IMG/VR virus record: IMGVR_UViG_3300017751_000011
Location: 1-64,000 of that record
Source of the DNA: a virus
DNA: 64,000 nt
Direction: 5' to 3' (one strand)
Below the pieces are notes generated by a model. It worked only from the letters and a program-made list of their open reading frames with translations. It searched no databases and was not told the origin of the DNA. The translations under genes and the position numbers were made by a program. Positions within the stretch are counted from its first letter, which is position 1. Each line of letters opens with the position of its first letter. Below, piece by piece: positions 3,231 through 27,983 of the stretch.

Positions 3231-3264
3231 CATCAATCCCTTCCGCATCACTAAAACAGAACAA

Positions 3265-4138: not shown

Positions 4139-4170
4139 TTTGGTAGATACAAACATTTGACTTATCTTTG
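4139..4170 (+). promoter_or_regulatory. early promoter P3, Bacteroidota sigma-A type
   Basis: TTTG at 4139-4142, 20-nt spacer, TATCTTTG at 4163-4170. Followed by the leader aatcagaaaacacacacaATG. Confidence 0.65.
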
Positions 4171-14010: not shown

Positions 14011-15677
14011 TGAAAGATTTTTATTGGGTCACAGAAGAGACCCGTCAGTTCATGGAGAAGGGATACCTAGATCCAGGACAGACAGTAGAGGAGAGGGCCA
14101 GAGAGATTGCCGATCACGCCCAATCTATTTTAGACGAATACAAGGGATACAACATGCATCCCAACTTCGCAGACGAGTTTTACGAGTGCATGTCCAAGGG
14201 TTGGTTCAGCCTCAGCACCCCAGTATGGGTGAACTTCGGCAAGACCAAAGGCCTCCCTATCTCTTGCTTCGGAACTCAGCTTCAGGATGACACATTCGAC
14301 ATCTTGAGAGGAGCCGCAGAGATTGGAGCCATGAGCAAAGTTGGAGGAGGTACGGCCACTTACTTCGGAAACCTGCGTCCTCGTGGAGCTAAGATTTCTA
14401 CAGGTGGAGAGACTAACGGCTCTGTATCTATGATGGAGCTGTTTAACACAACTACAAACGTTGTGTCTCAGGGCAAGGTTAGGCGTGGTAGTTGGGCGGC
14501 ATACTTGGACGTAGAGCACGACGACATAGAGGAGTTCCTTCAAATCCGTAGTGAGGGTCACCCTATTCAAGATGTTTCTTTCGCTGTGTGCATTAGCGAC
14601 AAGTGGATGCATGAGATGATCAAAGGAGACGCGAAAAAGCGCTCCATCATGGCCAAGATTCACAAGAAGCGTAGCGAAACGGGATACCCCTACATCTTCT
14701 TTACAGACAACGTAAACCATCAGAAGCCTGTCTGGTACAAGGACAAGGGCATGGAGATTAAGCACTCCCAGCTGTGTGCAGAGATCATGGAGTATACCGA
14801 CGACAAGAACAGCTTCGTGTGTTGTCTGTCTTCAATGAATGCATTGCATTACGACGAATGGAAGGACTCTAATGCTGTCTCCCTTTTGACTGCCCTGCTG
14901 GACACAGTTTACACCGAGTTCATCGACAAGGCCAAAGACCTCCCGTTTATGGAAAAGGCTGTTCACTTTTCTCGTAACCACAGGAGCATTGGCATTGGGG
15001 TGTTGGGGTATCACTCCTACCTCCAGAGCAAGGGCATTCCTTTTGAGAGTATTCAGGCCAGGTCTTTGAACAGGAATATATTTAAGGAGATAGAGGAACA
15101 GAGTGATGTAGCCAGCCGTAATCTGGCAACCATGTACGGATCCCCTAGCGTTTTAGAGGGGTACAACCGAAGGTTTAGCACACGCATGGCTGTAGCTCCA
15201 ACCACCTCATCCTCTTTCATTCTTGGGCAGGTGTCACCATCCATAGAGCCGTTGCAGTCAAACTACTTTACTAAGGACTTGGCTAAGGGTAAGTTTACTT
15301 ACAAGAATCCTTACCTAGCAGACCTACTTAAGGAGAAGGGTGAGGACGATGCAAAGACTTGGAAGAGCATCATGATGAAGGGAGGGTCTGTCCAGCACTT
15401 AGACTTCCTGAGTCAGGACGAGAGAGATGTGTTCAAGACCTTCGCTGAAATATCTCAAATGGAGGTAGTACAACAAGCGGCTGACCGACAGAAGCACATC
15501 GATCAAGGGCAGTCACTTAACGTCATGATCAGTAACGAAGTCCCGCTCAAGGACGTTAATCAGCTGGTTATCAAGGCCTGGGAGTTAGGTATCAAAACCT
15601 TGTACTACCAGAGGGGTGTCAACCAAGCGCAAGCTGTAGGAAGAGACATTCTTAATTGCGCAGTTTGTGAAGGTTAA
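14010..15677 (+). CDS. nrdA: ribonucleotide reductase class I alpha subunit (short form, no ATP-cone evident)
   Basis: NLRPRGAKISTGGETNGSVSMMELFN active-site region and C-terminal CAVCEG cysteine pair. TAATG-coupled to nrdB. Confidence 0.85.
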   Translation: MKDFYWVTEETRQFMEKGYLDPGQTVEERAREIADHAQSILDEYKGYNMHPNFADEFYECMSKGWFSLSTPVWVNFGKTKGLPISCFGTQLQDDTFDILRGAAEIGAMSKVGGGTATYFGNLRPRGAKISTGGETNGSVSMMELFNTTTNVVSQGKVRRGSWAAYLDVEHDDIEEFLQIRSEGHPIQDVSFAVCISDKWMHEMIKGDAKKRSIMAKIHKKRSETGYPYIFFTDNVNHQKPVWYKDKGMEIKHSQLCAEIMEYTDDKNSFVCCLSSMNALHYDEWKDSNAVSLLTALLDTVYTEFIDKAKDLPFMEKAVHFSRNHRSIGIGVLGYHSYLQSKGIPFESIQARSLNRNIFKEIEEQSDVASRNLATMYGSPSVLEGYNRRFSTRMAVAPTTSSSFILGQVSPSIEPLQSNYFTKDLAKGKFTYKNPYLADLLKEKGEDDAKTWKSIMMKGGSVQHLDFLSQDERDVFKTFAEISQMEVVQQAADRQKHIDQGQSLNVMISNEVPLKDVNQLVIKAWELGIKTLYYQRGVNQAQAVGRDILNCAVCEG

Positions 15678-15727
15678 GTATATTTGCATTGTTACGCCGA
15701 CCTAGTGCAGTGTAATTTCGCTACCGA

Positions 15728-15758
15728 GGGGGGGAGTCTTATAGGCTTCCCCCCTTTT
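15728..15758 (+). terminator. rho-independent terminator at the convergence point of the two arms
   Basis: An 11-bp G/C-rich stem, GGGGGGGAGTC/GGCTTCCCCCC, with loop TTATA followed by TTTT. The stop codon of the leftward holin-like gene abuts it. Confidence 0.75.
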
Positions 15759-16200
15759 ACTTCTTGACTTTTTCTATGGTCCTTCCCGCGAAGTAAGCTC
15801 CAAACACCGTCAGCATAAGGATCTCAAGTAGATTGATGTAGTTTTCTGGGGGCATGAACTGTGGGTCTAGGCCGTCCCAAATCATCATTATCATATAAAA
15901 AGCCGTCAAGGATATAAGGATCGCAGGACGAATGTACTTAGCTAGTTTCACGTCTGACTTAGCATCAGCCTCCCACCTCCTTGTGACTTGCTCTTGTGCT
16001 TGGGCCTCCATCTCGTTTACGAGGCGGTCAAACTCAAGCTTATCCTGAGCAGACAATTCTGGAGAGCCGTCCACGACGCGCTTTAACACGCCTAGTACGC
16101 CTTGATCTGGCAGGATGTCCCCTACACTGCCAGCGACTTCGGGAAGCTTCTCTCTTAGAAACCTCCCGACTTTCGTGTCTTTAAAGGGCTTATCTGGCAT
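15757..16200 (-). CDS. holin-like membrane protein (GTA-holin 3TM-like, putative)
   Basis: Charged N-terminal half, then RRWEADAKSDVKLAKYIRPAILISLTAFYMIMMIW and a second helix LLEILMLTVFGAYFAG. Last gene of the late arm. Confidence 0.4.
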   Translation of the reverse strand: MPDKPFKDTKVGRFLREKLPEVAGSVGDILPDQGVLGVLKRVVDGSPELSAQDKLEFDRLVNEMEAQAQEQVTRRWEADAKSDVKLAKYIRPAILISLTAFYMIMMIWDGLDPQFMPPENYINLLEILMLTVFGAYFAGRTIEKVKK

Positions 16201-19200
16201 CGTACAGCTCCTGCATGATGTCGAATAAAGCTACTGTGTGTTGCCTGTATCCGTTACGCCCATACTCTTTTGCGCTGTTGTAGTTGTCCGCAACCTTATT
16301 GAGGAGCTCGATCCTTTCCTCGTCGTTTGAATTTTGATACTTACGCGTCTGAATTATTTCAGTAGCCTCCTTGTGCCTAGCCTGACCTGATATCTTCATC
16401 AGCCTGTTTATTTGTTCTGTAGTCAAGTAGATTCTTTCCGCCATAAACTCTTCGTCCTTTATCCAAGTGTAGTTTCTACCCATAGAGCGTACCATTTTTT
16501 TGTCCTTCTTAGAGGTAATATTTGGCACACTGAATTTTCTAGTAGAGGCGTAAGATGGGGTTCCGCACACACCTGTAAACTCTTCAGTGTTTTCATACAA
16601 CCTCCAAATCTCGTTAGATAGAGGGTCTGCGGTCCCCTGCCTAGACTTAGTGATATCGAATAGTTGATACCCTATTCCTGAAGCACCCCTGGGTGTCTGA
16701 CTGATGTCTTCTCCTTTCCAATTTACCCTTACAGGATAGTCGCTCAAGCCAAATGTCCTGTCTTTTATTGTGTAGGCAAATTTACTCGAAAGCCTTTCCC
16801 AGAACTCTTGATCTTTAGAAACTCTTCCGTCTGGAAGGTAGTCCCTGTCAGCCCTGTAAAACGCATTAAGCTGGTTCGGTATTACTGCCGCGCTTCCAGC
16901 CTTAAACATGGTTGTTATCAGGTTCTCAAGGTCTCTTTCTGCGTTGTCTCCAGTAAGAACTTTCATGAACTCATTCAAACCCTGGACAAAGCTTTGCTCC
17001 ATCATGGCCGATATAGCCGACACAGATCCCGCACCAAAGAAGTCAGATATGGTATGAGAAGTAAATTGAATAGGGCTAGAGTACTCTCTTTCCTTTAGCT
17101 CCTCTGAGTCCATAGCCTGAACAGCCGTTGACATAATAGCCCCAAACATTCCTAGCTTGTCATACCTAACAAAGTAGTCGTCTTCTTTGTGGCTTGCATC
17201 TTCTCCTGCAATAAGGCGCCTTAAAGCTGACACGTTTACACTGCTAGGAGGGAAAATGTCGTAAGCCATGTTCTTTTCCTCGTCCTCGTCCCACTTTACT
17301 GGTCCAGACATAATGCCTTCGCTTATCATCATGAGCGCCGCCTCCATGGTTACTGCCCCCATCATCATCTTCGCCAAAGTCTTAGAGCTTTCTTCTACGT
17401 CTCCTTTTCTTAACTCCGAAGCCATACGAGCCGTGCCGATATATGGATTCACCCAAGTAAATGTTTCATAAAGAATATTTGCAGGAGTGGATCGGAACGG
17501 AAGAATAACTCTAAACAGGGCTCTAGAGAACTCATCTCCATTTAATCCCATCGCATTGAGCGGCCTTCCCACCATTCCCTCTAAAGCGCTTACTACTCTG
17601 TTTACATTTTCACTCGCTGAAGTCTCTTCTTGAAACGTCAGCTTTCTTCCTTGCCTTTTTGCACTTTCCAATTCTCTAGCCGTAGGATACTTAAGAAATC
17701 TCTTAAGTGCCTCCCCCTCTAGACCCATAGAAAGAGCAGACTGGTATAAGTCAACCCCTTCTGCAAACCTCCTAAATGGGATATCCCCCAGAGACAACAG
17801 CCTAAACATTGTTTCTGCTGGTATACCCAAGGTCCCCTGAACAAAGAGCTTCATCCTTTGATCTAAACTCCCCTTTCCGTCAGGACCTAAAGGAAGATCA
17901 CCCTTGTATGCCGCTTTTAACGATCTAAGAGGAGCCAGACCCCTGGCTATCCTCCACTCTGAGAGCTCCCTGTCTTGGCCAGTGACTACTTGGTCAGCGG
18001 CTTCAACAAACCCCATTCCAAACTTTCTTACAGCGTACATGTAGGCATTCAAGCTGGGCCTCCTGCTAATCTCTACCTCCTTGCCCATCGCTTGTCCAAC
18101 CTTGACCAAGGCAGCTTCAAAGGGAAGAGAAACAGAGTTAACCGCAACCGAAGCTACAGCGTTAACCATGTTCGCCCCTATATTTACTACTTGAGACATA
18201 GTTGTCAATAGGTTGCCCTGAACAAGCTGCCCAAACAACGTTCCCCATCCTTTGCCCACCATTGAGTTAGTGAACCCCTCTAAATCTCTCTCCGTCTTTT
18301 TTAAGGCGTCAACAGCGGCTTGCAACTCAGCATCTACTTCTTCTCCACCAACTGCCCTTTTTAGAAGATCGTCAGCCTTGGCTTGCTCTACAAAAAGCTT
18401 TTCGGTCAAGGCTTTCAACCTAGCTCCCTGTTCATCAGACAGCTTATTTCCTTGATTTTCTACAGCGGAATTTACTATAGAGTACAACCCAGCAGGAGTC
18501 CCTGACTTAAGCTCCCTGAAGTGCCTAAGTATTCTTCCAGCAGTAGTTCCTATGGCTGCAAGCTCGGCAACCAATGAAGGAATTCTTTCTGTCTCTCCTC
18601 TAGCTATCGCCCTCCTAATCATTTCAGCTCCTGCCAATACTCCCAGGTCGTCGTTCTTTTGAGACAGCCGACCTATTGACTCATCGGTCATAAGGTTAAT
18701 TAGCTCTTGGTCCCCCATGTCTGAAACCTCAGCCTTAAGTTGCTTTAAGTTTTGAGGAGTAATGTAGTTTTCAGGGTTTTGAACTATGTCAGCCCTTGTG
18801 GACCCGTAAAACTTTCTAGACTGTTTCTCTGCGGTCTTTCTAATTTTCTTGCCCTTAGTGTAGCTAGAAATGCTTGCTCTTTCTTGAGCGGTTTGCATGT
18901 TCTCGGCTACAGTAGACTCTTCTAAGGCGACCTTTGATCCTAGGGGCATGGCGTCGTAGGCTGATTCTAAGGCCTCCCTATTAGGGAACTCCATTTGAAG
19001 AACCCTTTCCGCGTATGCTTTAAATCTATTTACGGACTTATCGTACTTAGCCCCACGCATAACTCTTTTTGCCTTACCCTTAGGGGACTCAATTTTACCT
19101 CTTTGTAAGATAGGGTCGTTAAGACTGTAGTATTCAATCTTACCCCTGAGATACACGTTATTGCCGACTACTGTAGCTTCTTCCGCAGACTTGATGGCCC

Positions 19201-22200
19201 TTCCTGCTGCGTCCACAAACAAGTGTTCTCTGAACGGGTTAAACATGGCCTTAACTCCACTATAATCACTATCATCAATGCCTTCTGACTTAAACTGTCC
19301 TTGCACTGCCGCCATAGGGAATTTGTTTTCCTGAAAGGTGACAATCTTTTCTCTAGCTCCTTGGTTTACAGCGAGCTCTACGTTAGTTAAAGTGACGGCC
19401 CCAGAGTACCTCAGAGCTTTTCCAGTTGCTGACTTGTCGTGAACGGTTTGCACAGGGACACCTGTATTCTTCTTTACGTTTAAGTTGAGCCTGACGGCTA
19501 TTTTTTGACCGACTTCTACTTTGTTTTTTTCCTCTATAATTCTTATAGACGTTTTATCTGTAGCCAAAGCCTCGTCTACCATCCTGTCGGTCATGACAGA
19601 GCCTCCCTTAACTGAGGCCGCCTCTTTAACTTCTCTGTCTTTAAACAACGGTGAGTCAGAAGATTCGACTACTTGATCAGACTCTCCTGGGTCAATAGGG
19701 TCAAACAGCATGGCCGCCCTCTCTGAACTAATTCCTGAGGAGTTATTAATAGCCTTTATGCTGTTCTTTCCTTCACTTTCTAGGTCGAGGTTTTTAAGGT
19801 CAAACGCATCTACATCAGATAGAACTTGATCTGTCAAGTCTGCGTAAGACTCATACCCAAGCTCTCCATCTGCCATATACCCCATCTCTTCCTGCATAAC
19901 CTCCCAAATGGACTGCTGAACGTGGTACGCAGTCCATTTCTTTTCCCCCCTTCCTCTACCTTCATTAAGAAGCTTTACTGCACTTTTAATGGATTCTTTA
20001 CTAAGGGTGTCATTGACTTTAAGATCGCCGTAGATACTTTCTCTACCCATGAGTCTCCACAGGGCTTTTGATAGCCTCCGATTCTCTGAAACCCCATCAA
20101 ATATCTTTCTCCCCGCTTTCATGGCAGCGATAGCTCTGGCAGCTTTGTTTTTAAATGCGTAATCGGATTCGGAGAGGCCTACCTCGTTTTTAAGGTAGTT
20201 GTCAATAGCCTCTTCTGTTATACCCAGCTCCTCTACAAGAGCTTCAGCCCCCTTTACAGCTTCTGGATTTACAAATGTCTCTCCAGTAAGAGGCGTGAAG
20301 TTGCCTTGGAAAACGTGAAAGAACTTACGTACCCAATTTTCTTTATGCAAGTAAGCCCTCTCCCCCTTGCCCATCAGTCCAGCGGCGTGTTCACCCGTCT
20401 TTTCTGCGTCACTACTACCCATGATGAACCTAGACTGGATGGCATCTTTACCTGACTTCTTCCTAGAGTACCTTTTAGCCATAGCCTTAGAGTTAAAATT
20501 GACCCCGTCCCAATATTTGTTTGCGTCAGATAGAATATTCTGTATGGAAGTGACTACAGCACCTACTCTCTGTTGGTTTACATCATCCTTTTTTACTATA
20601 AATTCTGTATTGCTTTCACGTAAGGCTTTATAGACAGACTCGGAAACGGCTTCAGAAGGCTTTTTACCTTTTGCGATACCCGTCAAGTACGAGCGATAAA
20701 CAACAAGGGCTACCCTAAGGTTAGCTTCTGCTTTAGCCCCGTTAGATGTTGTAGCGAGAATAGCGGCGAATACACCAAAGTGGTCCCTATGGTTCTCAGG
20801 GATCATCTCCGCTGGCAAAGAGGACTCTATGAAGTCTGACACTTTGTCAAATGACTCCTTTACTTCCCCGTCTATCTCTCTAATGTCTTTTCCGTTTCTC
20901 TTTACTCTTGTTCCGTTGTGATATATTATTAGCGGAACAATATCAGAGGCTATGCTTAAGGGTTTTCTTTCTCCGTCAGAAACCATTGGAGCCATAGCGT
21001 TAAATACCGTATTTAGATTTCCGCCTCCTTTTGTTATTGCACAATCAAATGCAACTCCACCGCAAATTTTTCTTTTAGAAGCCTCTAAAATCTTATCTCT
21101 TTTTTCCTGCTGGTTTATACCCTGGTCTCTAGCAATATCCATAGGCTCCATAGAAGCCCTTTCGGTAGCTATGTCGTCACCATCCTCTTTTTTTCTTAAC
21201 CCAAAGTGCTCTTCGATCGCCATCCTGAGCTTAGAAAGAACCTCTGGATCTGTGTATTTTGAAACCTCGAAAGAAGTCTCTCCTCCTACAGGAGGGGAAT
21301 ATATGTTTTCCTTACCTTCCTTAGAAGCTATAAACTCTGCGCCAAATAACTCTATTGCAATCTTATCTAGTAACTTTTGCTTTCCGTCGTTGGACCTTTC
21401 TTCAATGCTCATGTTTTCATAGAGCAGAGTGTTTATGAGGGTGCTTTCTTTATTTCTGTTTCTGTTTCTTTCTTCTGCTATTTGTGTCGGAGTCCTTTTT
21501 GTCGCAGGCGGCTTCATGTTCCACTTAAGCATGACGTCAACATTCAGGGCGTAGTCCTTACCGTCAATCGTAACAGAGAAAGACCCAAAGGGAAGCTTTC
21601 CCATTCTTGTGGCTCTTTTCCACCAGTTTATAAAATGCCACTTTCCGTTAAACTCTTGAGTTTTTATAACCGTTCCTACCTGAATTCCCACGGTCTCTTT
21701 GCTCCCATATGTTGGGGCGGAATACATAACTTCAAACTTTCCGTTTTCTGGAAGCTTTGACACAGACATAGGTCTCTTTGAAGAGTAAGAAGCCCTTTCA
21801 GCTGTTTTTCCTACTGTAGGCCCTACAGAAACTCCTACACCAGACTTATGTACTTGAGACATGGCTCCCAGAAGCTGTTCTGCGCTAGATACGTCTGTAA
21901 TAACGTAATCCTTAGGGGCGCCAATCGTCTTGAACATATTGTTCATCAGCACTCTGACCTTGTCAAAGAAGGTGTCTTTTGCCTTTTGGTCAACCCCCTC
22001 CCAAACATCAGCAAGTTCTGAGGTAATCTCAAAGACCGACTCTTCAAATATTATTGCGTCTGCCTCCTCTTGAGTAAACCTTCTGTTGCCCTTTTTATCA
22101 GTGCTGTCATACAACTTTCTATATGCTTCCTCTTTTGCTGCTACTTTCTGCTGTATGTTTTTGTTAGGGTGTAACTTAGCCAGCGCTTTTAGGTCGGACA

Positions 22201-25200
22201 GGAGTTTAAGGGCAGAAGCTTTATCTTTCTTAAACAGCAAGTTTAAGTGAGGACCAATCATAGCGTGTTGAACCTCTTCAAGCATAACAGACTCAAAAGA
22301 TTTATCACTATTTGCCGCCTTCCTTGTAATCAAAGCAGGGTTGACGTGGATCACAATGCCCCCATTGTTGTAAGAGACGTAGTACCCGTTTATCTCGTTT
22401 TTGCCGACTCCGTCAGCCCTGTTACCTGACTCTTCTGTGTTATGTACCCTAATGGTTACTGGCCTCCCTTGAGCACCAAGATTCATTATTGTTCTACTCA
22501 ACTTGCCGTTGATAAACCTGGCCATCCTTTTCGTCAAAGGTCCCCTAGGTAGCACCGAAGTAGTCCCGTCCTTGTTGGCCGAGTAGTCTGAGAACTGCCC
22601 GTTTATACCTCTTTCGTCTGACTTAGACTCCTCCTCTGGGGCCTCCTCTACTTCCTGCTCTGTCTCTACTTCCTGCTCTACTTCCTGCTCTACTTCCGCT
22701 TCTTGGCTAACCTTAGATTCACTTATAGCTTTAGCCTCCGCCGCTTCATAAGAGTCAAACATTACCCCCTCCCCTACTTTGCCTTCTCCTTTTACAAAGA
22801 AGACAACATCAGGTTTGCTTTTAAGTGGAGAATTTTCTGCGTCCCAACCTTCTTTGGCATACTCCTCATTAAATGGCGTCCTAGACACGGGCTTAAATCC
22901 GTTTTTTACATAAATGTCCTCAAGCTTTGTGGCATACGCATCGAAGTAAGTTCCTCCCTCTTTAATTCTTCTGGACTGCATCGCCGCAGAAACACCTTTC
23001 TGCTTAGAATCAGGAGACTTAAAAAGGCCTCCCATGTATCCATCTCCCTTCAGGTAAGATCCCGACAGGCCATCGCTTGACAGGTACAGCTTACCCCCGT
23101 TAGCAACTATCTCTCTTGCTGTTTCTATCGACACAGGGTCAACCTGCATAAATAAGTTTTTGCCCGTCTCTTGGTCCCTTTTTCTAGCCTCGTCAAAAGC
23201 TTTTACATACTCTTCAGGAGTTGTAGTCGTGATACCGTCTTCTTCTTGTTCAATGTCGTCTTCAGTCGTCACTTCAGCTTCCACTTCAGCCTCAAACCCT
23301 TTAATCCCCATGTAGTTAAGCAGCTCTTGCTCCGCTCTTTTTACTTTTTCATTGGCTGCTTTTAGTCTGTTCTTGTTTTTCTGAGTGTCACTAGCAGAAG
23401 CCTTTTCTTTCGCTTTCTCGGACTCATTAATCAACCCCTGCACTTCTCCGACGAGACGCATAGATTCATCTCTAGTCTGCTTAGACTCTTCGTATTTAGA
23501 CTTAGACAGCCTAAGGGCATCTGGGTCAGATGATTTAGTATTGGAAGCGGCTTCGTGGTCGTCTAGGGCCTGCCTACGAGCCTTGACTTCATCATTCATC
23601 TCCCCCATCCTCTTGGAAATGTTAGCCCTGTTTACCGTTTGAGTCTCTTCTTCCGTAAGGGTCAGAGATTCATCCTTGAAGGAGTTAAACAAAGTACTTC
23701 TCTGCTCAACTACTTGCTTAAACTCTTGGCTCATCTTGTCAAGGGCGGCCTGGTCTTCTTCAGTAACAGCTTCTCCTTCTGAGTACTTGGAGTAGATGGC
23801 TTCAGCTTTTTTGGACATAGAGGCTAAAGACGCATCCATCTTAGCAAGCTTTCCGAAAGCAGATTCGTGCCTGAGCCTAATAACTTGATATAAGGCCTGA
23901 TTTTTTGATCTGTGCTTAGAGACCTCTCCAGAAGTCTTTCCGTAAGACTCCCTACTCTCTCCAGACATAACTGGCTCAGAGCCCTCTACCTCTACTTCAG
24001 AAGAGCTTGGATCTGCCACTGAGTTTACAGCAGCTTGAGGCCCAGTAACAACATCGGAGGGAACTCCAAGTATAGCTCTTCCTGACCTTACCCCTCCGAT
24101 CGGAGATCCCGCAGCTCCAAGAAACCCAGTTCCTACAGCTCCCGCTACAAATGCGTCATAAGCTTCAGCAAGGCCTTCGTTAAGGCTTTGAGTACTATTA
24201 CCCATCTTCGTCTCCATGACGTGCTGAGCGAAGCTCTCTACAAATTCCTGAGTTCCCTCTCCAAGGGCGTCTATTCCCTGCCCAACTAAGTAGGCACTCA
24301 TGGCCTTCTTGGTGGTAACCTTGGATAGGTCTCCAGAAAAAATCTTTCTTACAGCAGAGTTGGTAAGACTTGTCCCTGCCTTTCCAATAACCCTTTGCCC
24401 TACACCAGCCATAATAGCACCGCTTCCAGCCTGTATAGAGCCTATACCCAAAGACATGGCCATCCGCTGAGCATTAGCCCCTAAAGAAAAAGGGTCGAAT
24501 ATAGGAGCAAGCCCTTTTTGGACTCTGTTAAAGTCCTCCCTTTCGCTATCGATGTAGGTGTTTAGAGTACCTAACGTTCCAAATACGACTGGAGCAGCAC
24601 CGCCAGACACTGCGCCAACAGCCAAATAAGGCAGAACTGCGCCACCTTCTTGGCTTGCTCTTGCGAGGTCGTGACCCAAATGATTTAGAGTTCCTAAAAC
24701 ACCATCCGCATCGATGCCCTCCCCTTTACTGAAGTAATCGTGATCTTGATAATCACGAGTCTCCATGTTCGACGCCATGTCCTCAATAGTCTGATCGACA
24801 AACCTAGTAAAGGCAGCTGTGTCTTCTTCACCAAAAAGCCCTGCACCCATACCTGCTAGTGCAGAGATAGGCCCGCTAAGCATCTGAGCGGCAGCTGATC
24901 CAGCAGAATTGATAAAACTGCTTATAATACCTACGTCTTCATTGTATACGTTGTCTCCATCTAGGTTGATTCTAAGCCCACCTTTGGTCAGGTCATATAC
25001 CTCTTCTGAAAGCTCTTCTAAGTAATCAGCATCCTCTCTCTCTTCATCTGAAAGACCCTCAAGAATTTCTTCTTTGTAGTCGTTCATTTTATCGCGCATG
25101 AAATCGGAAGAGTTCAGCATGAACAGCCTATTGAACTCCTGCTCAAACATGGCCTTAGTATACTCTCCGCTTTTTAGCTTCTCCTGCATGTCCAGGATTT

Positions 25201-25903
25201 GCTGCTTGTACTCGGAGTTGTTCTTCATCATCTGCTCATGAGATGACGCATAGTCTTTCTTTATTTGCCCAGAGTAATGAGAAGATATGGACTGTACCCT
25301 TGCCCTTTTTTGGGCGGCCATTTCTTTGTCTTCATCGACAGTAAAGTACTTCTTATTCTGTTCTTCTTTAAACTTAGAGTCGTAGAACTTGGCGTATTCT
25401 GATCGTGCGAGACCGATCTTTTCTTTATTGCCTTCATTAAGGCCGTCCCCAAAGACGTCTTCCCTTGTTACGCCGTTTCCAAGCTTGCCCTTTCCAATCG
25501 CCCAGTCAACAGCGTCTTTTGTGTATGCGGCCTCCATCTCCGACTTATCGAACATGTTTACATCCTCGTGCGCACCCGTGTTAAGACTGTAGCTTCTCCA
25601 CTGCTGAATTTCGGGCTTAAGACTGCTTGACTGCAGTGTTGGATTTAGAATGGTATTCTCTTTGACCTCACTCTTTTCTGACTCTTCTGAAGACAACGCT
25701 GACGCTCCACCCGAAGATGTTGAACGCATAAATTCTCCCGTTGCCACCACCTCTTTTTTTTTTGACTCAAGGCCAACCAAGGATCTAGCTTCGCTTGGCT
25801 GTAGTGCATATTTAGAATTATACGTTAAAACATTAGCGATGTACTCGTCAGACTTTCCGCGAGACCTCATACTTGCTATTATCTTTTGATAATCCTGTTC
25901 CAT
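16190..25903 (-). CDS. giant virion protein (3237 aa), putative polyvalent internal or ejection protein
   Basis: Single uninterrupted 9.7-kb ORF. It has Gly/Ala-rich hydrophobic stretches, long charged coiled-coil-like segments and an acidic EQEV repeat. It sits where podovirus-like gene orders place internal core proteins. Confidence 0.8.
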   Translation of the reverse strand: MEQDYQKIIASMRSRGKSDEYIANVLTYNSKYALQPSEARSLVGLESKKKEVVATGEFMRSTSSGGASALSSEESEKSEVKENTILNPTLQSSSLKPEIQQWRSYSLNTGAHEDVNMFDKSEMEAAYTKDAVDWAIGKGKLGNGVTREDVFGDGLNEGNKEKIGLARSEYAKFYDSKFKEEQNKKYFTVDEDKEMAAQKRARVQSISSHYSGQIKKDYASSHEQMMKNNSEYKQQILDMQEKLKSGEYTKAMFEQEFNRLFMLNSSDFMRDKMNDYKEEILEGLSDEEREDADYLEELSEEVYDLTKGGLRINLDGDNVYNEDVGIISSFINSAGSAAAQMLSGPISALAGMGAGLFGEEDTAAFTRFVDQTIEDMASNMETRDYQDHDYFSKGEGIDADGVLGTLNHLGHDLARASQEGGAVLPYLAVGAVSGGAAPVVFGTLGTLNTYIDSEREDFNRVQKGLAPIFDPFSLGANAQRMAMSLGIGSIQAGSGAIMAGVGQRVIGKAGTSLTNSAVRKIFSGDLSKVTTKKAMSAYLVGQGIDALGEGTQEFVESFAQHVMETKMGNSTQSLNEGLAEAYDAFVAGAVGTGFLGAAGSPIGGVRSGRAILGVPSDVVTGPQAAVNSVADPSSSEVEVEGSEPVMSGESRESYGKTSGEVSKHRSKNQALYQVIRLRHESAFGKLAKMDASLASMSKKAEAIYSKYSEGEAVTEEDQAALDKMSQEFKQVVEQRSTLFNSFKDESLTLTEEETQTVNRANISKRMGEMNDEVKARRQALDDHEAASNTKSSDPDALRLSKSKYEESKQTRDESMRLVGEVQGLINESEKAKEKASASDTQKNKNRLKAANEKVKRAEQELLNYMGIKGFEAEVEAEVTTEDDIEQEEDGITTTTPEEYVKAFDEARKRDQETGKNLFMQVDPVSIETAREIVANGGKLYLSSDGLSGSYLKGDGYMGGLFKSPDSKQKGVSAAMQSRRIKEGGTYFDAYATKLEDIYVKNGFKPVSRTPFNEEYAKEGWDAENSPLKSKPDVVFFVKGEGKVGEGVMFDSYEAAEAKAISESKVSQEAEVEQEVEQEVETEQEVEEAPEEESKSDERGINGQFSDYSANKDGTTSVLPRGPLTKRMARFINGKLSRTIMNLGAQGRPVTIRVHNTEESGNRADGVGKNEINGYYVSYNNGGIVIHVNPALITRKAANSDKSFESVMLEEVQHAMIGPHLNLLFKKDKASALKLLSDLKALAKLHPNKNIQQKVAAKEEAYRKLYDSTDKKGNRRFTQEEADAIIFEESVFEITSELADVWEGVDQKAKDTFFDKVRVLMNNMFKTIGAPKDYVITDVSSAEQLLGAMSQVHKSGVGVSVGPTVGKTAERASYSSKRPMSVSKLPENGKFEVMYSAPTYGSKETVGIQVGTVIKTQEFNGKWHFINWWKRATRMGKLPFGSFSVTIDGKDYALNVDVMLKWNMKPPATKRTPTQIAEERNRNRNKESTLINTLLYENMSIEERSNDGKQKLLDKIAIELFGAEFIASKEGKENIYSPPVGGETSFEVSKYTDPEVLSKLRMAIEEHFGLRKKEDGDDIATERASMEPMDIARDQGINQQEKRDKILEASKRKICGGVAFDCAITKGGGNLNTVFNAMAPMVSDGERKPLSIASDIVPLIIYHNGTRVKRNGKDIREIDGEVKESFDKVSDFIESSLPAEMIPENHRDHFGVFAAILATTSNGAKAEANLRVALVVYRSYLTGIAKGKKPSEAVSESVYKALRESNTEFIVKKDDVNQQRVGAVVTSIQNILSDANKYWDGVNFNSKAMAKRYSRKKSGKDAIQSRFIMGSSDAEKTGEHAAGLMGKGERAYLHKENWVRKFFHVFQGNFTPLTGETFVNPEAVKGAEALVEELGITEEAIDNYLKNEVGLSESDYAFKNKAARAIAAMKAGRKIFDGVSENRRLSKALWRLMGRESIYGDLKVNDTLSKESIKSAVKLLNEGRGRGEKKWTAYHVQQSIWEVMQEEMGYMADGELGYESYADLTDQVLSDVDAFDLKNLDLESEGKNSIKAINNSSGISSERAAMLFDPIDPGESDQVVESSDSPLFKDREVKEAASVKGGSVMTDRMVDEALATDKTSIRIIEEKNKVEVGQKIAVRLNLNVKKNTGVPVQTVHDKSATGKALRYSGAVTLTNVELAVNQGAREKIVTFQENKFPMAAVQGQFKSEGIDDSDYSGVKAMFNPFREHLFVDAAGRAIKSAEEATVVGNNVYLRGKIEYYSLNDPILQRGKIESPKGKAKRVMRGAKYDKSVNRFKAYAERVLQMEFPNREALESAYDAMPLGSKVALEESTVAENMQTAQERASISSYTKGKKIRKTAEKQSRKFYGSTRADIVQNPENYITPQNLKQLKAEVSDMGDQELINLMTDESIGRLSQKNDDLGVLAGAEMIRRAIARGETERIPSLVAELAAIGTTAGRILRHFRELKSGTPAGLYSIVNSAVENQGNKLSDEQGARLKALTEKLFVEQAKADDLLKRAVGGEEVDAELQAAVDALKKTERDLEGFTNSMVGKGWGTLFGQLVQGNLLTTMSQVVNIGANMVNAVASVAVNSVSLPFEAALVKVGQAMGKEVEISRRPSLNAYMYAVRKFGMGFVEAADQVVTGQDRELSEWRIARGLAPLRSLKAAYKGDLPLGPDGKGSLDQRMKLFVQGTLGIPAETMFRLLSLGDIPFRRFAEGVDLYQSALSMGLEGEALKRFLKYPTARELESAKRQGRKLTFQEETSASENVNRVVSALEGMVGRPLNAMGLNGDEFSRALFRVILPFRSTPANILYETFTWVNPYIGTARMASELRKGDVEESSKTLAKMMMGAVTMEAALMMISEGIMSGPVKWDEDEEKNMAYDIFPPSSVNVSALRRLIAGEDASHKEDDYFVRYDKLGMFGAIMSTAVQAMDSEELKEREYSSPIQFTSHTISDFFGAGSVSAISAMMEQSFVQGLNEFMKVLTGDNAERDLENLITTMFKAGSAAVIPNQLNAFYRADRDYLPDGRVSKDQEFWERLSSKFAYTIKDRTFGLSDYPVRVNWKGEDISQTPRGASGIGYQLFDITKSRQGTADPLSNEIWRLYENTEEFTGVCGTPSYASTRKFSVPNITSKKDKKMVRSMGRNYTWIKDEEFMAERIYLTTEQINRLMKISGQARHKEATEIIQTRKYQNSNDEERIELLNKVADNYNSAKEYGRNGYRQHTVALFDIMQELYDAR

Positions 25904-25922
25904 TGCCTTCAGCTTATAAAGG

Positions 25923-25930
25923 CAAAGATA
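25923..25930 (-). promoter_or_regulatory. -7 box TATCTTTG upstream of the giant ORF
   Basis: Exact copy of the early-promoter -7 octamer on the minus strand, 19 nt upstream of the ATG at 25903. No clear -33 TTTG. Confidence 0.45.
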
Positions 25931-25953: not shown

Positions 25954-27177
25954 TTAGTCTTCATACAGACTATCCATAATCTGTTTAAACGAACCGTCAC
26001 CTAAATTAGCATCAATCTGAGATTCTAAGTCTTTGTAAACCGCCCCATCAGGACCTCCTATAAGCATTGGACTTAAGTTGGTTATTAGCACGGGTCCGTT
26101 TTCTGACATTCTTATTGCTTGAACGTCAATATCTTCAAATTCTTCTCCTTCTTCAGGGGTCTGGTCAAGGGTTGCTCTGTTTATAGTGACATTTTGATCG
26201 TCATCAAAACTGTAAGTAGTAACGCCGTCCACCTCTACAATGTTTGAGAGTGTCCTTTCAAACGATTCCGATTTCTTTTTTGCAGCTTTTGATTCAGGGG
26301 TTTCTTTAGAGAAGTTGTCTGGTACTGAGGCTTCTGCGTAAGCTTTTGCGGCGTCGTTTAATCTCCCAGGAGTGGTAGCAATCTGTTCTGGAGTCATAGC
26401 CTCAATCTCTACCCTTTCTACTTCTGACAAGCCATCTAGGTTTTCTTTATACCACCTAGCCATGTCAAGCCTACCTCTTTCAGTAGACGTAGTAGTGGCT
26501 TCAACCCAGCGCACAGCTTCGTCTCTGTCTTGATACTTAGAGTCGTCTCTTTGCCTTATCCAGAAGCTATTAGGTTCTGGAGGAGGTAATAATTCCAACC
26601 TAGGCTTCCCCGCCGTAAGATCCATAAGGCTAGGGTCTTGCACTCCTACTTTAGACCCTGTGCCTTCAGATAAAACAAAGTGGCCGTCTTCAATGCTGAC
26701 AGCATATTTATTTCCATTGTCCAAATCCCCTAGCTTACTTTCATAGTGAGCAAGATTATTGGCGTCACGCTCCCCTCTTGCTTCTAACTCTTCTGGATTC
26801 TGTCCGCTTCTGGCTATGTTTAGATTTGTTTCTAACTCAGGGCTTACTATCTTAAACATAGACTCTGCTTCGTTAATGCCAAACTCAAGCTCCTCAATTA
26901 GCTGGCTATACTGCTCCCTGCCTTCTGCAGTCTTCATATACTCGTCTTTGTTGTCCCTAAGCTGTTTTGCAGCAGAGGTCCAAGCCTGAGAGTGAGAGTC
27001 AAACATGGTTGCAGAAGACACGAGGGGAACTGATGAAGCCTGATCTATGGCTGCCTTCTCCTGAGCCTTTTCGTTTTCGTTCCTCAGTTTCATCTGAGCT
27101 AATGACTCAGAGATGCCACTAAAGAAGTCCGTCTTTTCAGGAGTCCCTAAATCTACCTTTCCATACAAGAAACTCAT
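25954..27177 (-). CDS. virion-associated hypothetical protein (407 aa, acidic)
   Basis: ATG ORF, ATGA-coupled to the upstream gene. Position is consistent with an internal virion protein. Confidence 0.7.
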   Translation of the reverse strand: MSFLYGKVDLGTPEKTDFFSGISESLAQMKLRNENEKAQEKAAIDQASSVPLVSSATMFDSHSQAWTSAAKQLRDNKDEYMKTAEGREQYSQLIEELEFGINEAESMFKIVSPELETNLNIARSGQNPEELEARGERDANNLAHYESKLGDLDNGNKYAVSIEDGHFVLSEGTGSKVGVQDPSLMDLTAGKPRLELLPPPEPNSFWIRQRDDSKYQDRDEAVRWVEATTTSTERGRLDMARWYKENLDGLSEVERVEIEAMTPEQIATTPGRLNDAAKAYAEASVPDNFSKETPESKAAKKKSESFERTLSNIVEVDGVTTYSFDDDQNVTINRATLDQTPEEGEEFEDIDVQAIRMSENGPVLITNLSPMLIGGPDGAVYKDLESQIDANLGDGSFKQIMDSLYED

Positions 27178-27983
27178 CGTGATTCCTTTTCAAATTTCCT
27201 AAACAGCTGCGCCGCAAATTTACTTTGCTTAGCAATCTTGGCTGCTTGTTCTGGGTTTACAACGTACTCACCTCCAGTTACTTCACCCACTTTGGCTCCA
27301 TCTTGCATTAAGTTTATTGGGTTTGATCCGTGGCTAAATTCACCAGGAGTTTTCATCCCTTTCTTGCCGTAGATCTTGCCTCCGTTAGCCTTTGGTTTGA
27401 ACAAGCCAGCTCCAGCTGCCTGACCACCTATATCGAAGAGTCCTGCCGCAAAGTCGTATCCTAGCTGATTTCTCTGCTGCTTAGACTGAAAAGCCCCCAT
27501 CATACCAGAAGCAGCTTGCTGTCTGGCTAAATCCAAATCAACCCCTATATCACCTCTCTGCTCCCTTCTATTCTGCTCCTCCATTTGACCTACAGTAGAC
27601 ATAGCACTTGTCTTTCTAGTGTACTCGTCAGCCCCGATATTAGCCATATTACTAGCCGCCATTTGCTGTTGGGCTCCAAGACCACCGAGCAAAGCCCTAG
27701 CACCGCCAGCCTTCAAAGCCCCTATAGCTGTACCAGACTGACGTTGAGCCTCTTGTCTTTGCAGGTCCGCAGTAGGGTCTTGCATGGAGTACTGCATGTA
27801 CTTACGCATCGTAGGCCCGATGCCGTACATGCCCTCCCTCTGAGACTGCAGCCTGTTTGCGTCTGCTTCGCCTTCTCGACCAAGTTTACCATATAGCTCT
27901 TCCTGAGCCTTAAGCGTCTTAGCCTGCCCCAAGGCTCCTATTCCCTGTCCTATCGCTCCTAATGCTAGTGATAATGGATTCAT
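27174..27983 (-). CDS. Gly/Gln/Ala-rich putative internal virion protein (269 aa)
   Basis: Low-complexity G/A/Q composition and a C-terminal GGKIYGKKGMKTPGEFSH motif. Confidence 0.65.
   Translation of the reverse strand: MNPLSLALGAIGQGIGALGQAKTLKAQEELYGKLGREGEADANRLQSQREGMYGIGPTMRKYMQYSMQDPTADLQRQEAQRQSGTAIGALKAGGARALLGGLGAQQQMAASNMANIGADEYTRKTSAMSTVGQMEEQNRREQRGDIGVDLDLARQQAASGMMGAFQSKQQRNQLGYDFAAGLFDIGGQAAGAGLFKPKANGGKIYGKKGMKTPGEFSHGSNPINLMQDGAKVGEVTGGEYVVNPEQAAKIAKQSKFAAQLFRKFEKESR

What the first reader, a model, noticed from the sequence alone, without database searches (positions are those of the whole stretch)
16190..25903. 3237-aa single-ORF virion protein with its own promoter box
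About 15 percent of the window is one ORF. It is the last large gene of a run of 269, 407 and 3237 aa that occupies the position of internal core or ejection proteins in podovirus-like layouts, yet it is far larger. It mixes Gly/Ala-rich hydrophobic segments (aa ~330-620), long charged helical regions, an acidic EQEV repeat and several globular-looking blocks. That architecture resembles the polyvalent proteins that phages inject to counter host defences. An early-type TATCTTTG box lies 19 nt upstream, so it might also be expressed outside the late programme.
Basis: partly seen in the sequence, partly recalled or inferred. Interest (0 to 1): 0.75.

Follow-up and report, generated by a model that had tools for sequence, protein, structure and literature searches.

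The report
Giant phage ejection protein carrying effectors
This 3237-residue gene of a marine Bacteroidota podophage most likely encodes a DNA-ejection protein stored inside the virion, enlarged by about 1500 residues of inserted passenger domains that include a swappable cassette; this kind of protein is already known, so it is a large new example rather than a new kind.

Summary
The ORF is real: 16190-25903 on the minus strand, 3237 aa, kept full length in many metagenomic relatives.

- **C-terminal module.** The last ~900 aa form a conserved module found at the C-terminus of 863 protein clusters. It is homologous to the "internal virion protein D" (T7 gp16-position) proteins of marine T7-like phages: CRP-361, HTVC011P, Syn5 and P-SSP7.
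- **Gene order.** The order is crAss-type muzzle, 269 aa, 407 aa, giant, holin. Three related contigs keep it.
- **N-terminus.** It has Gly/Ala-rich hydrophobic segments and coiled coil.
- **Passenger region.** Between the two ends lie:
  - a 192-aa cassette with a weakly supported GNAT-like fold, cleanly replaced in an 89%-identical relative;
  - a zincin-like domain with conserved EExxH...E (HExxH in some relatives);
  - a helical block;
  - a Phage_L5_gp82 domain.
- **Distant relatives.** They carry RadC, SNF2 helicase, ART-PolyVal and LPD3 domains.

The ejection-protein and polyvalent reading is supported, but both concepts are published (Hardies 2016; Iyer 2017). The TATCTTTG box exists and is conserved in two relatives. 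It lacks the other features of the early promoters. Packaging, catalysis and any anti-defence role remain inferred.

The parts
16190..25903 (-). Complete 3237-aa ORF (called Q here), the giant ejection/polyvalent protein
   Evidence: Full-length relatives of 3086-3279 aa. The exact protein is on record on a 66,366-bp contig.
25923..25930 (-). TATCTTTG box, 19 nt upstream of the ATG. It matches the Bacteroidota -7 promoter consensus TAnnTTTG.
   Evidence: Identical in L010 and present 20 nt upstream of the ATG in L011, whose spacer is otherwise diverged. Absent in L007, where the ATG overlaps the upstream stop.
25905..25923 (-). Stem-loop GCCUUUA-UAAGC-UGAAGGC between the box and the ATG
   Evidence: -8.3 kcal/mol, z -2.3. 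The equivalent sequence in L011 does not fold stably (-2.6 kcal/mol, z 0), so conservation is not supported.
23267..25903 (-). N-terminal region, aa 1-879: charged head, Gly/Ala-rich hydrophobic segments, long charged helical/coiled-coil stretch
   Evidence: Homologous N-terminal regions occur in 40+ relatives, including ~1700-aa proteins where this region directly abuts the C-terminal module. Weak, composition-biased match to aa 153-754 of phi38:1 gp101.
24095..24934 (-). Gly/Ala-rich hydrophobic segments (aa 324-603), candidate membrane-inserting helices
   Evidence: Kyte-Doolittle peaks of 1.1-1.7 at aa 324-357, 420-447, 481-501 and 581-603. Two uncharged runs of 22-28 aa.
22690..23268 (-). 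Swappable cassette 'domain A' (aa 880-1071), GNAT-like fold (tentative)
   Evidence: blastn against the contig of P0001 gives 88.5-89% nt identity on both sides and none across this interval. PHROG 2563. AF2 pLDDT 78-94. The highest-probability Foldseek PDB hits are GNAT acyltransferases, but with E > 0.1. BFVD hits at E 1e-5 to 8e-4 are to solo 136-173 aa phage proteins and to a 'large polyvalent protein associated domain' protein. About 50% identical copies sit in 1600-2100 aa proteins with LPD38. A copy sits at the C-terminus of the Microbacterium phage Caron minor capsid protein.
22634..22708 (-). Acidic E-A/Q-E-V linker repeat (aa ~1066-1090) on the downstream edge of the cassette. A shorter EAEVEAEV lies on the upstream edge (aa 871-878).
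   Evidence: DNA tandem repeat at 22642-22701. The same repeats flank the alternative cassette in P0001.
21734..22618 (-). Domain B (aa 1096-1390), zincin-like metallopeptidase (MPTase-type) with an EExxH variant
   Evidence: Among 42 homologous domains, position 1209 is E in 35 and H in 5. E1210 is kept in 40/42, H1213 in 41/42, E1288 in 42/42 and H1186 in 28/42. AF2 pLDDT 60-85. Weak Foldseek hits to the gluzincins MATCAP and M1 aminopeptidase. Iyer 2017 describes a phage-type MPTase with a conserved His at the end of strand 2.
19655..21733 (-). Region C (aa 1391-2083), mostly helical, unknown function, dispensable in one relative
   Evidence: Absent from P0020, where domain B abuts the C-terminal block. 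Conserved FNGKWHFINWWK motif at aa 1418-1430. AF2 confidence is poor. No Pfam hit.
19112..19594 (-). Domain D (aa ~2104-2264), Phage_L5_gp82 (PF25735), beta-rich, the most conserved part of the protein
   Evidence: Pfam E 1.1e-10, above the gathering score. E 4.6e-12 when the segment is scanned alone. PHROG 586. AF2 pLDDT 73-88. Occurs without the rest of Q in P0022-P0024, and P0024 also carries PF18814. No significant PDB fold match.
16193..18916 (-). C-terminal module (aa 2330-3237), IVP-D-like ejection/core module, helical with hydrophobic helices
   Evidence: 863 clusters at E <= 1e-3 and 373 at <= 1e-30, nearly always at the C-terminus of 1200-4566 aa proteins. tblastn hit to CRP-361 gp38 at E 5e-7. 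A family HMM built without any T7-like phage sequence hits HTVC011P IVP-D (45 bits), CRP-361 gp38 (38 bits) and Syn5 gp45 (24 bits), all collinearly. CRP-361 gp38 matches annotated 'internal virion protein D' in 59 other phage records. Hydrophobic helices at aa 2441-2459, 2570-2603 and 2842-2866.
25954..27177 (-). 407-aa upstream partner, in the IVP-C-like position; no family assignment
   Evidence: A gene of 361-423 aa sits at this position in L007, L010 and L011.
27174..27983 (-). 269-aa upstream partner, Gly/Ala-rich, homologous to Cellulophaga phage phi38:1 gp099 (annotated virion structural protein); IVP-B-like position
   Evidence: phmmer E 9e-14. Annotation. Sequence.
27997..32409 (-). 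1470-aa muzzle-like tail protein that precedes the ejection-protein block
   Evidence: Pfam crAss_MUZ_C E 3e-8. PHROG 14478 'virion structural protein' E 7e-118. Homologous to phi38:1 gp097.
15757..16200 (-). Holin-like gene that overlaps the giant gene's stop by 11 nt; last gene of the late operon
   Evidence: PHROG 3427 holin, E 2e-17. A 146-147 aa gene sits at the same position in L007 and L011.
15726..15756 (.). 14-bp G+C-rich hairpin between the converging RNR gene and the holin gene; likely bidirectional terminator

Best explanation
The gene encodes an internal virion (ejection) protein of the IVP-D / T7 gp16-position class. It has been enlarged into a polyvalent carrier.

Proposed mechanism; steps 1-2 and 4-6 are inferred, and step 3 rests on the homology evidence cited below:
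1. A few copies are packed in the head or tail with the 269-aa and 407-aa partners.
2. On infection the protein is extruded, partly unfolded, through the portal, tail and muzzle ahead of the DNA.
3. The Gly/Ala-rich hydrophobic N-terminal segments and the helical C-terminal module would help build the trans-envelope conduit. Only the C-terminal module has detectable homologues in T7-like phages.
4. The ~1500 residues inserted between them ride along as passengers into the cell. They are the swappable cassette A, the zincin-like domain B, helical region C and the L5_gp82-like domain D.
5. The zincin-like domain, with conserved E-E-x-x-H...E, probably cleaves the polypeptide at or near the acidic linkers and frees the passengers.
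6. The passengers then act on host targets early in infection. The cassette slot is exchanged between close relatives as effector loci usually are.
For: C-terminal module is IVP-D-like:
- tblastn against 50,697 phage genomes finds only Roseobacter phage CRP-361 gp38 (E 5e-7). gp38 lies between a gp15-sized gene and the gene before the tail assembly chaperone in an Autographiviridae genome.
- gp38 in turn matches proteins annotated 'internal virion protein D' in pelagiphages, cyanopodoviruses and roseophages. In P-SSP7, Syn5 and HTVC011P these occupy the gp16 position.
- An HMM built only from metagenomic relatives of Q hits HTVC011P IVP-D at 45 bits (HMM 200-750 against aa 516-1081), CRP-361 gp38 at 38 bits and Syn5 gp45 at 24 bits.

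Family size and position:
- 863 representative clusters match. The module is C-terminal in proteins of up to 4566 aa.
- Minimal relatives of ~1700 aa have only the N-terminal region plus the module.

Context:
- The order muzzle, ~270 aa, ~400 aa, giant, holin is conserved in three related contigs.
- The 269-aa protein is homologous to phi38:1 gp099. phi38:1 gp098-gp101 are all annotated as structural proteins.
- crAss001 has the same layout, muzzle then cargo proteins, and those proteins were confirmed in virions by mass spectrometry.

Passengers:
- Clean cassette replacement at the DNA level.
- At least three alternative cassettes occupy the slot among 28 relatives, including DUF3293 with a sub-threshold S-AdoMet lyase match.
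- Conserved zincin constellation.
- Polyvalent-type domains in distant relatives.

Published precedent:
- IVP-D homologues host cytoplasm-bound passenger domains, such as the N4 vRNAP and the H66 gp60 methylase (PMC4819975).
- MPTase is the hub domain of virion-associated polyvalent proteins (PMC5512222).
Against: - No virion proteomics exists for this phage, so packaging is inferred.
- No detectable similarity to T7 gp16 itself (hhalign probability 0.3; jackhmmer negative) or to the N4 gp50 C-terminus.
- The AF2 models of the helical regions are poor (pLDDT < 50). Foldseek against PDB gave nothing significant, so there is no structural confirmation.
- The first zinc ligand of the zincin motif is Glu, not His, in this clade, so activity is uncertain.
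- The GNAT-like assignment is weak: Foldseek E > 0.1, and no Pfam or PDB sequence hit.
- The positional analogue phi38:1 gp101 shows only a weak, composition-biased N-terminal match.
Confidence: 0.72

Rival explanations
1. It is a purely structural ejectosome or tail-extension protein. The middle domains are spacers or structural modules that lengthen the conduit and have no enzymatic or effector role.
For: - No domain in Q reaches a curated threshold for an enzyme family.
- The canonical HExxH is changed to EExxH.
- Most of the protein is predicted helical.
- Region C is dispensable in P0020.
Against: - E1210, H1213 and E1288 are conserved in 40-42 of 42 homologues that are only 20-30% identical overall. 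Degenerating spacers would not keep such residues.
- Cassette A also occurs as a solo small phage protein, on a minor capsid protein and in LPD38 proteins. That is the behaviour of an autonomous functional module.
- Domain D is the most conserved part of the protein, with many invariant polar residues.
- Relatives carry helicase, RadC and ART domains in the same position.
Confidence: 0.15
2. It is a virion RNA polymerase, like N4 gp50 or the crAss-like phi14:2 gp66, injected to transcribe early genes.
For: - Its size is similar to N4 gp50, which I recall as about 3500 aa.
- It sits next to a crAss-type muzzle, where crAss001 encodes RNAP-associated cargo proteins.
Against: - No Pfam, NCBIfam or PDB sequence match to any polymerase. 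The PDB copy searched should include the N4 mini-vRNAP (2PO4, named) and phi14:2 gp66.
- No invariant DxDxD-type motif appears among the conserved columns.
- The region not assigned to another domain is predicted helical, not double-psi beta-barrel.
- The early genes carry host-type -33/-7 promoter elements, so a virion polymerase is not needed.
Confidence: 0.03
3. It is a non-virion host-takeover protein made early from its own promoter and only coincidentally encoded in the late block.
For: The TATCTTTG box is identical to the three early-region boxes and is conserved in two relatives.
Against: - The box lacks the upstream AAATTTGG element and the leader shared by the early sites.
- In L007 the giant ATG overlaps the stop of the upstream gene, which indicates co-transcription and coupling.
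- The C-terminal module is homologous to internal virion proteins.
- No terminator precedes the gene.
Confidence: 0.05

Closest known systems
Extended IVP-D family (T7 gp16-position internal virion protein D) as defined by Hardies et al. 2016, including carriers of passenger domains such as N4 gp50 and Pseudomonas phage H66 gp60
   Same: - Encoded last in a small-medium-large block directly after the distal tail protein.
- Long and predicted helical.
- The C-terminal module is homologous to marine T7-like IVP-D proteins.
- It carries domains that make sense only inside the host cell.
   Different: - No detectable similarity to T7 gp16 or the N4 gp50 C-terminus.
- No lytic transglycosylase, polymerase or methylase domain.
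- The passengers are inserted between an N-terminal hydrophobic region and the C-terminal module, not attached at one end.
- The host phage is a Bacteroidota podophage with a crAss-type muzzle.
Polyvalent proteins of phages and conjugative elements (Iyer, Burroughs, Anand, de Souza, Aravind 2017)
   Same: - Giant multidomain protein encoded among late virion genes.
- Zincin-like MPTase-type domain with a conserved His at the end of the preceding strand.
- Modules that also occur solo or on other virion carriers.
- Relatives carry RadC, SNF2/ResIII, ART-PolyVal, LPD3 and DUF3293 domains.
   Different: - Q itself has no Pfam LPD domain.
- Its only above-threshold Pfam domain is Phage_L5_gp82.
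- The MPTase motif is EExxH.
- LPD38-type giants share cassette A but not the C-terminal module.
crAss001 cargo proteins gp45-gp50 (Bayfield et al. 2023)
   Same: - Genes directly downstream of a muzzle protein: smaller cargo proteins first, then giants of about 155 to 277 kDa (gp47 262.5, gp49 154.5, gp50 276.9 kDa).
- In crAss001 these were shown by mass spectrometry to be in the virion, and ejection by partial unfolding was proposed.
   Different: - crAss001's giants are RNA-polymerase-associated proteins spread over three genes.
- No sequence similarity to them was found.
- Here a single 3237-aa polypeptide shows no polymerase features.
MuF-type minor head proteins with C-terminal toxin/effector domains
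   Same: Cassette A is found at the C-terminus of the Microbacterium phage Caron minor capsid protein, which is encoded between the portal and scaffold genes. The same module is therefore delivered on a different virion carrier.
   Different: That carrier is a head protein with a VG15 domain, not an IVP-D-like ejection protein. The cassette there is terminal, not internal.

Membership tests
T7 gp16 (internal virion protein D, strict sense) | Sequence or profile homology to T7 gp16 | tested here: not met
   hhalign of the family alignment A7 against T7 gp16 gives probability 0.3. jackhmmer never recruits T7 gp16.
T7 gp16 (internal virion protein D, strict sense) | N-terminal lytic transglycosylase domain | tested here: not met
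   No SLT or lysozyme family in the Pfam, NCBIfam or PHROG scans.
Extended IVP-D family (Hardies 2016) | Homology to at least one recognised IVP-D subgroup | tested here: met
   The family HMM hits HTVC011P 'internal virion protein D' (45 bits), CRP-361 gp38 (38 bits) and Syn5 gp45 (24 bits). The extended profile hits P-SSP7 gp16 (24 bits). tblastn gives E 5e-7.
Extended IVP-D family (Hardies 2016) | Encoded in the IVP block downstream of the distal tail tube/nozzle gene, as the largest member | tested here: met
   Order muzzle-like 1470 aa, 269 aa, 407 aa, 3237 aa. The same order is found in L007, L010 and L011.
Extended IVP-D family (Hardies 2016) | Predominantly alpha-helical | tested here: met
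   DSSP on the AF2 model of aa 2330-3237 is almost all helix, but confidence is low.
Extended IVP-D family (Hardies 2016) | Present in virions at low copy number and ejected | not testable with these tools
   Needs virion mass spectrometry. The only indirect support is the structural-protein annotation of the phi38:1 positional analogues.
Polyvalent proteins (Iyer 2017) | Two or more unrelated effector-type domains in one polypeptide | tested here: inconclusive
   The zincin-like domain rests on motif conservation. The GNAT-like cassette rests on weak fold hits. L5_gp82 has no known function. None is proven to be an effector.
Polyvalent proteins (Iyer 2017) | Zincin-like MPTase domain (HExxH plus a downstream Glu) | tested here: inconclusive
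   Q has EExxH (E1209, E1210, H1213) plus the invariant E1288. Five or six of the 42 homologues keep HExxH. No Pfam peptidase model matches.
Polyvalent proteins (Iyer 2017) | Encoded among late/virion genes, with modules shared with other polyvalent or virion proteins | tested here: met
   Late operon context. Cassette A is shared with LPD38 proteins and a minor capsid protein. Relatives carry ART-PolyVal, LPD3, RadC and SNF2 domains.
N4 gp50-type virion RNA polymerase | T7-like single-subunit RNAP domain | tested here: not met
   No polymerase hit in Pfam or in the PDB sequence searches. The family profile does not hit the last 2491 aa of N4 gp50.
crAss-like virion RNAP (phi14:2 gp66 type) | Two double-psi beta-barrels with a DxDxD metal motif | tested here: not met
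   No PDB sequence hit. No conserved DxDxD among the invariant columns. The unassigned regions are predicted helical. The fold test is limited by low model confidence.
GNAT acyltransferases (for cassette A) | GNAT fold with an acyl-CoA binding motif | tested here: inconclusive
   The Foldseek hits with the highest probability are GNATs: 7cs1_A, 7pk0 and 2r1i_A, probability 0.5-0.66 and E 0.6-1.8. There is no Pfam or PDB profile hit. No clear R/Q-x-x-G-x-G/A motif appears in the alignment.

The most novel reading that the evidence does not exclude
The family is a polymorphic ejection-protein system. A conserved IVP-D-like chassis (hydrophobic N-terminus plus C-terminal module) carries an internal slot bounded by acidic EAEVE repeats. 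In that slot, effector cassettes are exchanged by recombination between near-identical phages: a GNAT-like domain, DUF3293/SAM-lyase-like, a third unknown type, or none. A dedicated EExxH-variant metallopeptidase releases the cassette after injection, and the cassette counters host defences of marine Bacteroidota.
Probability: 0.25. Interest if true: 0.65.

Novelty: new member of a known kind. Interest (0 to 1): 0.45.

Why it matters
- **Pre-made protein delivery.** Ejection proteins that carry passengers let a podophage deliver ready-made proteins before any gene is expressed.
- **Large, undescribed family.** This family has 863 clusters, and none of the 14 distant members scanned has a Pfam family covering the module. 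It has no solved structure and appears mostly in marine metagenomes.
- **A natural experiment.** Two phages about 89% identical in DNA differ only in a 192-aa internal cassette. Swapping cassettes and testing host range or resistance to defence systems would address what injected polyvalent proteins actually do.
- **A testable active-site variant.** The conserved EExxH...E variant is a concrete target for testing self-processing.
- **A wider link.** The case connects crAss-type tail architecture (muzzle plus cargo) with T7-type IVP-D proteins in one phage lineage.

Tried and rejected
1. **PDB sequence searches.** I searched with the whole protein, the 7-sequence profile, the 22-sequence C-terminal profile and the cassette-A profile. 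No meaningful hits.
2. **AF2 models.** Models of aa 2080-3237 and aa 880-2079 both have mean pLDDT 56.6. Only domains A, B, D and the last ~150 aa are usable. Foldseek against PDB gave no hit with E <= 0.001.
3. The prediction tool rejected proteins.
4. **A bad alignment.** Aligning full-length relatives to the middle segment misaligned cassette A, so I discarded A2.
5. **My own error, corrected.** From a BLAST table I first thought the whole N-terminus of P0001 was replaced. Window-by-window identity showed that only aa ~870-1092 differ, and blastn confirmed it.
6. **LPD38 as a relative of the C-terminal module.** Rejected: LPD38 proteins share only cassette A.
7. **Homology of the giant to phi38:1 gp101.** Only a weak, composition-biased N-terminal match.
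8. **Homology of the N-terminal region to marine IVP-D N-termini or to phi38:1 gp101 by jackhmmer.** None found.
9. **Conservation of the 5' hairpin.** Not supported in L011.
10. **SAM-lyase identity of the DUF3293 cassette in relatives.** Only a sub-threshold Pfam hit (E 9e-5, 22.9 bits against a cutoff of 28) and no PDB hit.
11. **Literature on L5 gp82 and DUF3293.** Gave no functional information.

Full report
**1. The observation**

The window holds one uninterrupted ORF at 16190-25903 on the minus strand. It starts with ATG and encodes 3237 aa. I call this protein Q. The gene is real, not a chance ORF or an assembly fusion:
- Six metagenomic proteins of 3086-3279 aa align with it from residue 1. 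P0001 is 92% identical overall, P0002 56% and four others 33%.
- The exhaustive search found 34 further cluster representatives of 3000 aa or more.
- The exact protein is on record on a 66,366-bp contig, and its cluster includes a Tara Oceans fragment. The window is therefore most of a marine phage genome.

- Gly/Ala-rich hydrophobic segments at aa 324-603.
- Charged helical stretches.
- The acidic repeat at aa ~1066-1090, encoded by a short tandem DNA repeat.
- The TATCTTTG box 19 nt upstream of the ATG.

**2. What phage this is**

- The large terminase (54883-57000), the portal (52390-54861), a major-capsid-like protein and several "virion structural protein" PHROGs lie on the minus strand.
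- A BT4734-type primase-helicase and ribonucleotide reductase genes lie on the plus strand.
- The closest cultured relatives are flavobacterial podophages at 27-47% protein identity: Flavobacterium elemo phages and the Cellulophaga phages phi38:1, phi40:1 and Calle. phi38:1 is classified in Pervagoviridae.
- The 1470-aa protein just upstream of the block (27997-32409) carries the crAss muzzle C-terminal domain. It is homologous to phi38:1 gp097.

**3. Gene context**

The order muzzle-like, ~270 aa, ~400 aa, giant, ~147-aa holin-like gene recurs in the contigs of P0001, P0002 and P0003.
- In phi38:1 the muzzle-like gp097 is followed by gp098-gp101 (132, 200, 549 and 1691 aa). All are annotated as structural proteins by similarity to phi18:1.
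- The 269-aa protein is homologous to gp099 (E 9e-14).
- The holin-like gene overlaps the giant gene's stop by 11 nt. It is followed by a 14-bp G+C-rich hairpin that faces the converging RNR genes.

**4. The C-terminal module**

Residues ~2330-3237 are the family-defining part.
- Size of the family: an exhaustive HMMER search of 1.84 billion cluster representatives with aa 2084-3237 returned 863 proteins at E <= 1e-3 and 373 at E <= 1e-30. The matched stretch is almost always at the extreme C-terminus of proteins of 1200-4566 aa.
- No existing annotation: in a scan of 14 distant members, no Pfam family was shared by all of them, so none covers the module. No PDB sequence matches a 22-sequence profile.
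- First link to cultured phages: among 50,697 phage genomes, tblastn found one hit, Roseobacter phage CRP-361 gp38 (E 5e-7). gp38 has 1309 aa and sits after tail tubular proteins A and B and three smaller genes, exactly where T7 has gene 16.
- Second link: gp38 matches 59 other phage records, most annotated "internal virion protein D" or "internal virion protein". They include pelagiphages, roseophages and cyanopodoviruses. In P-SSP7, Syn5 and HTVC011P the matching gene occupies the gp16 position.
- Direct test: an HMM made by jackhmmer from Q's module and metagenomic relatives only, with no T7-like phage sequence, hits these proteins collinearly:
  - HTVC011P IVP-D at 45 bits (HMM 200-750 against aa 516-1081).
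  - CRP-361 gp38 at 38 bits.
  - Syn5 gp45 at 24 bits.
  - After adding these, P-SSP7 gp16 scores 24 bits.
- Limits: there is no detectable similarity to T7 gp16 itself (hhalign probability 0.3) or to the C-terminal 2491 aa of N4 gp50. This fits the extreme divergence that Hardies et al. describe for this family (PMC4819975).

**5. The chassis**

- The N-terminal region (aa ~200-880) is shared by more than 40 relatives.
- In proteins of ~1700 aa such as P0063 it runs directly into the C-terminal module: N-terminal region at aa 210-725 and module at aa 743-1653.
- Q therefore looks like this minimal protein with about 1450 residues inserted in the middle.
- The N-terminal hydrophobic segments are moderately hydrophobic and rich in small residues. 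Three more hydrophobic helices lie in the C-terminal module.

**6. The inserted domains**

*Cassette A (aa 880-1071)*
- Replacement: blastn between the window and the contig of P0001 gives 88.5-89% identity over window 29373-23269 and 22689-16141. There is no similarity in between, where 579 nt here face 460 nt there. The breakpoints lie in the acidic EAEVE-type repeats on both sides.
- Slot contents: among 28 relatives with the same architecture, the slot holds:
  - a DUF3293 domain in 10 (Pfam E 7e-12, with a sub-threshold S-AdoMet lyase match at E 9e-5);
  - a second, unknown type in 9;
  - Q's type in 3;
  - two unique sequences of 109 and 189 aa in one relative each;
  - almost nothing (28-66 aa) in 4.
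- Other carriers: Q's cassette is about 50% identical to segments of many 1600-2100 aa proteins, some with LPD38 and a methyltransferase. It also lies at the C-terminus of the Microbacterium phage Caron minor capsid protein, which is encoded between the portal and scaffold genes. BFVD holds solo versions of 136-173 aa and a "large polyvalent protein associated domain" protein (E 1e-5 to 8e-4).
- Fold: the cassette is confidently modelled (pLDDT 78-94). The PDB matches with the highest probability are GNAT acyltransferases, but their E-values are 0.6-1.8, and profile searches find no GNAT. I treat "GNAT-like" as tentative.

*Domain B (aa 1096-1390)*
- One relative, P0031, has VIHINL...VMHEVFHAII where Q has VIHVNP...VMLEEVQHAMI.
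- Conservation across 42 homologous domains:

| Q position | Residue counts | Likely role |
|---|---|---|
| 1186 | H 28 | conserved His at the end of the preceding strand |
| 1209 | E 35, H 5 | first metal ligand of HExxH |
| 1210 | E 40 | general base |
| 1213 | H 41 | second metal ligand |
| 1288 | E 42 | third ligand (Glu on the next conserved helix) |

- This is the [H/E]ExxH...E constellation of a gluzincin-type metallopeptidase. It matches Iyer et al.'s description of a phage-type MPTase with a conserved His at the end of strand 2.
- The uniform His-to-Glu change with everything else conserved argues for a working variant rather than decay. Activity is untested.

*Region C (aa 1391-2083)*
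- It is helical, poorly modelled and absent from P0020.

*Domain D (aa ~2104-2264)*
- It matches Pfam Phage_L5_gp82 above threshold.
- It is the most conserved part of the protein, 84% identical to P0002 over aa 2101-2200.
- It is beta-rich with pLDDT 73-88 and occurs in otherwise unrelated proteins.
- Its function is unknown.

**7. Relatives' passengers**

Fourteen distant members of the C-terminal-module family carry these domains: DUF7178 (6), RadC-like JAB (4), ResIII (3), Helicase_C_4, the C-terminal domain of Strawberry notch homologues (2), DUF3293 (2), and one each of SNF2-related, LPD3, ART-PolyVal and SseC-like. This is the repertoire catalogued for polyvalent proteins.

**8. Mechanism**

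Shown here:
- Homology of the C-terminal module to IVP-D proteins.
- The conserved context.
- The cassette exchange.
- The conserved zincin constellation.

Inferred from published work on T7-like phages, N4, H66 and crAss001:
- The protein is packed in the virion and extruded ahead of the DNA.
- The N- and C-terminal parts contribute to the envelope-spanning conduit.
- The middle domains enter the cell, possibly after cleavage by domain B, and act early.

An anti-defence role is plausible, given the cassette polymorphism and the DUF3293/SAM-lyase hint in relatives, but it is not demonstrated.

**9. The promoter question**

- TAnnTTTG is, to my knowledge, the Bacteroidota -7 promoter consensus.
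- Early sites: the three plus-strand TATCTTTG sites (293, 2221, 4163) share an AAATT[TA]GG element ending 21 nt upstream and a conserved AATCAGAAACACAC leader.
- The giant gene's site has neither feature.
- Late sites: several late genes have TATATTTG, one base different, 4-17 nt before their ATG.
- Conservation: the giant's box is identical in L010. It is retained 20 nt before the ATG in L011, at 60% protein identity, although the rest of the spacer differs. In L007 the giant ATG overlaps the upstream stop and there is no box.
- Conclusion: a dedicated promoter in this sub-clade is plausible. Early expression is not shown.

**10. Novelty and verdict**

- Both concepts that explain this protein are published: IVP-D homologues as carriers of cytoplasmic passenger domains (Hardies 2016), and virion-associated polyvalent proteins with MPTase hubs (Iyer 2017).
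- This is a large new member, with a passenger set that has not been described, an internal exchangeable slot and an EExxH peptidase variant. It sits in a marine Bacteroidota lineage that combines a crAss-type muzzle with a T7-type IVP-D.
- I rate it moderately interesting.

Noticed in passing
window 293-300, 2221-2228, 4163-4170 (+ strand) and about 50 nt on either side: Three plus-strand sites share a full architecture. An AAATT[TA]GG element ends 21 nt upstream of TATCTTTG, and a conserved AATCAGAAACACAC leader lies 30-37 nt downstream. They look like host-type (Bacteroidota) early promoters with a common 5' leader.
   Followed up: partly
window 27995, 33997, 38168, 39247, 43186, 50157, 54876, 63527 (- strand): TATATTTG recurs on the late strand. 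At several sites it lies only 4-17 nt before the ATG of a late gene (269-aa gene, 879-aa gene, portal and others). It may be a late promoter class that gives very short leaders.
   Followed up: partly
window 57257-58576 (-): A 439-aa phage protein just upstream of the terminase gene carries a CHU_C type IX secretion sorting domain (Pfam E 1.7e-14). This suggests export through the host T9SS.
   Followed up: no
window 27997-32409 (-): A crAss-type muzzle C-terminal domain occurs in a ~66-kb phage related to flavobacterial podophages such as phi38:1 (Pervagoviridae), outside Crassvirales. The same domain appears in the relatives' contigs.
   Followed up: partly
window 15726-15756: A 14-bp G+C-rich hairpin (GAGGGGGGGAGTCT...) lies between the converging RNR large-subunit gene and the holin-like gene. 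It is likely a bidirectional terminator marking the junction of the two transcription arms.
   Followed up: no
L001 (phi38:1) gp100 and L002 (CRP-361) gp37: phi38:1 gp100 (549 aa, annotated structural protein) and the gp15-position protein of CRP-361 are weakly similar (phmmer E 6e-5 in a small database). This hints that the middle protein of the block is also related between flavobacterial and T7-like podophages. The window's 407-aa protein showed no such match.
   Followed up: partly
P0021 and P0191, on one 61,986-bp NCBI contig: In one relative the giant protein appears as separate ORFs of 754 and 675 aa, while another member of the same 90% cluster has 3299 aa. This could be a real split, as in F116 versus H66, or frameshift errors.
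   Followed up: no
window 13027-15677 (+): Class I ribonucleotide reductase small and large subunit genes end the plus-strand arm.
   Followed up: no
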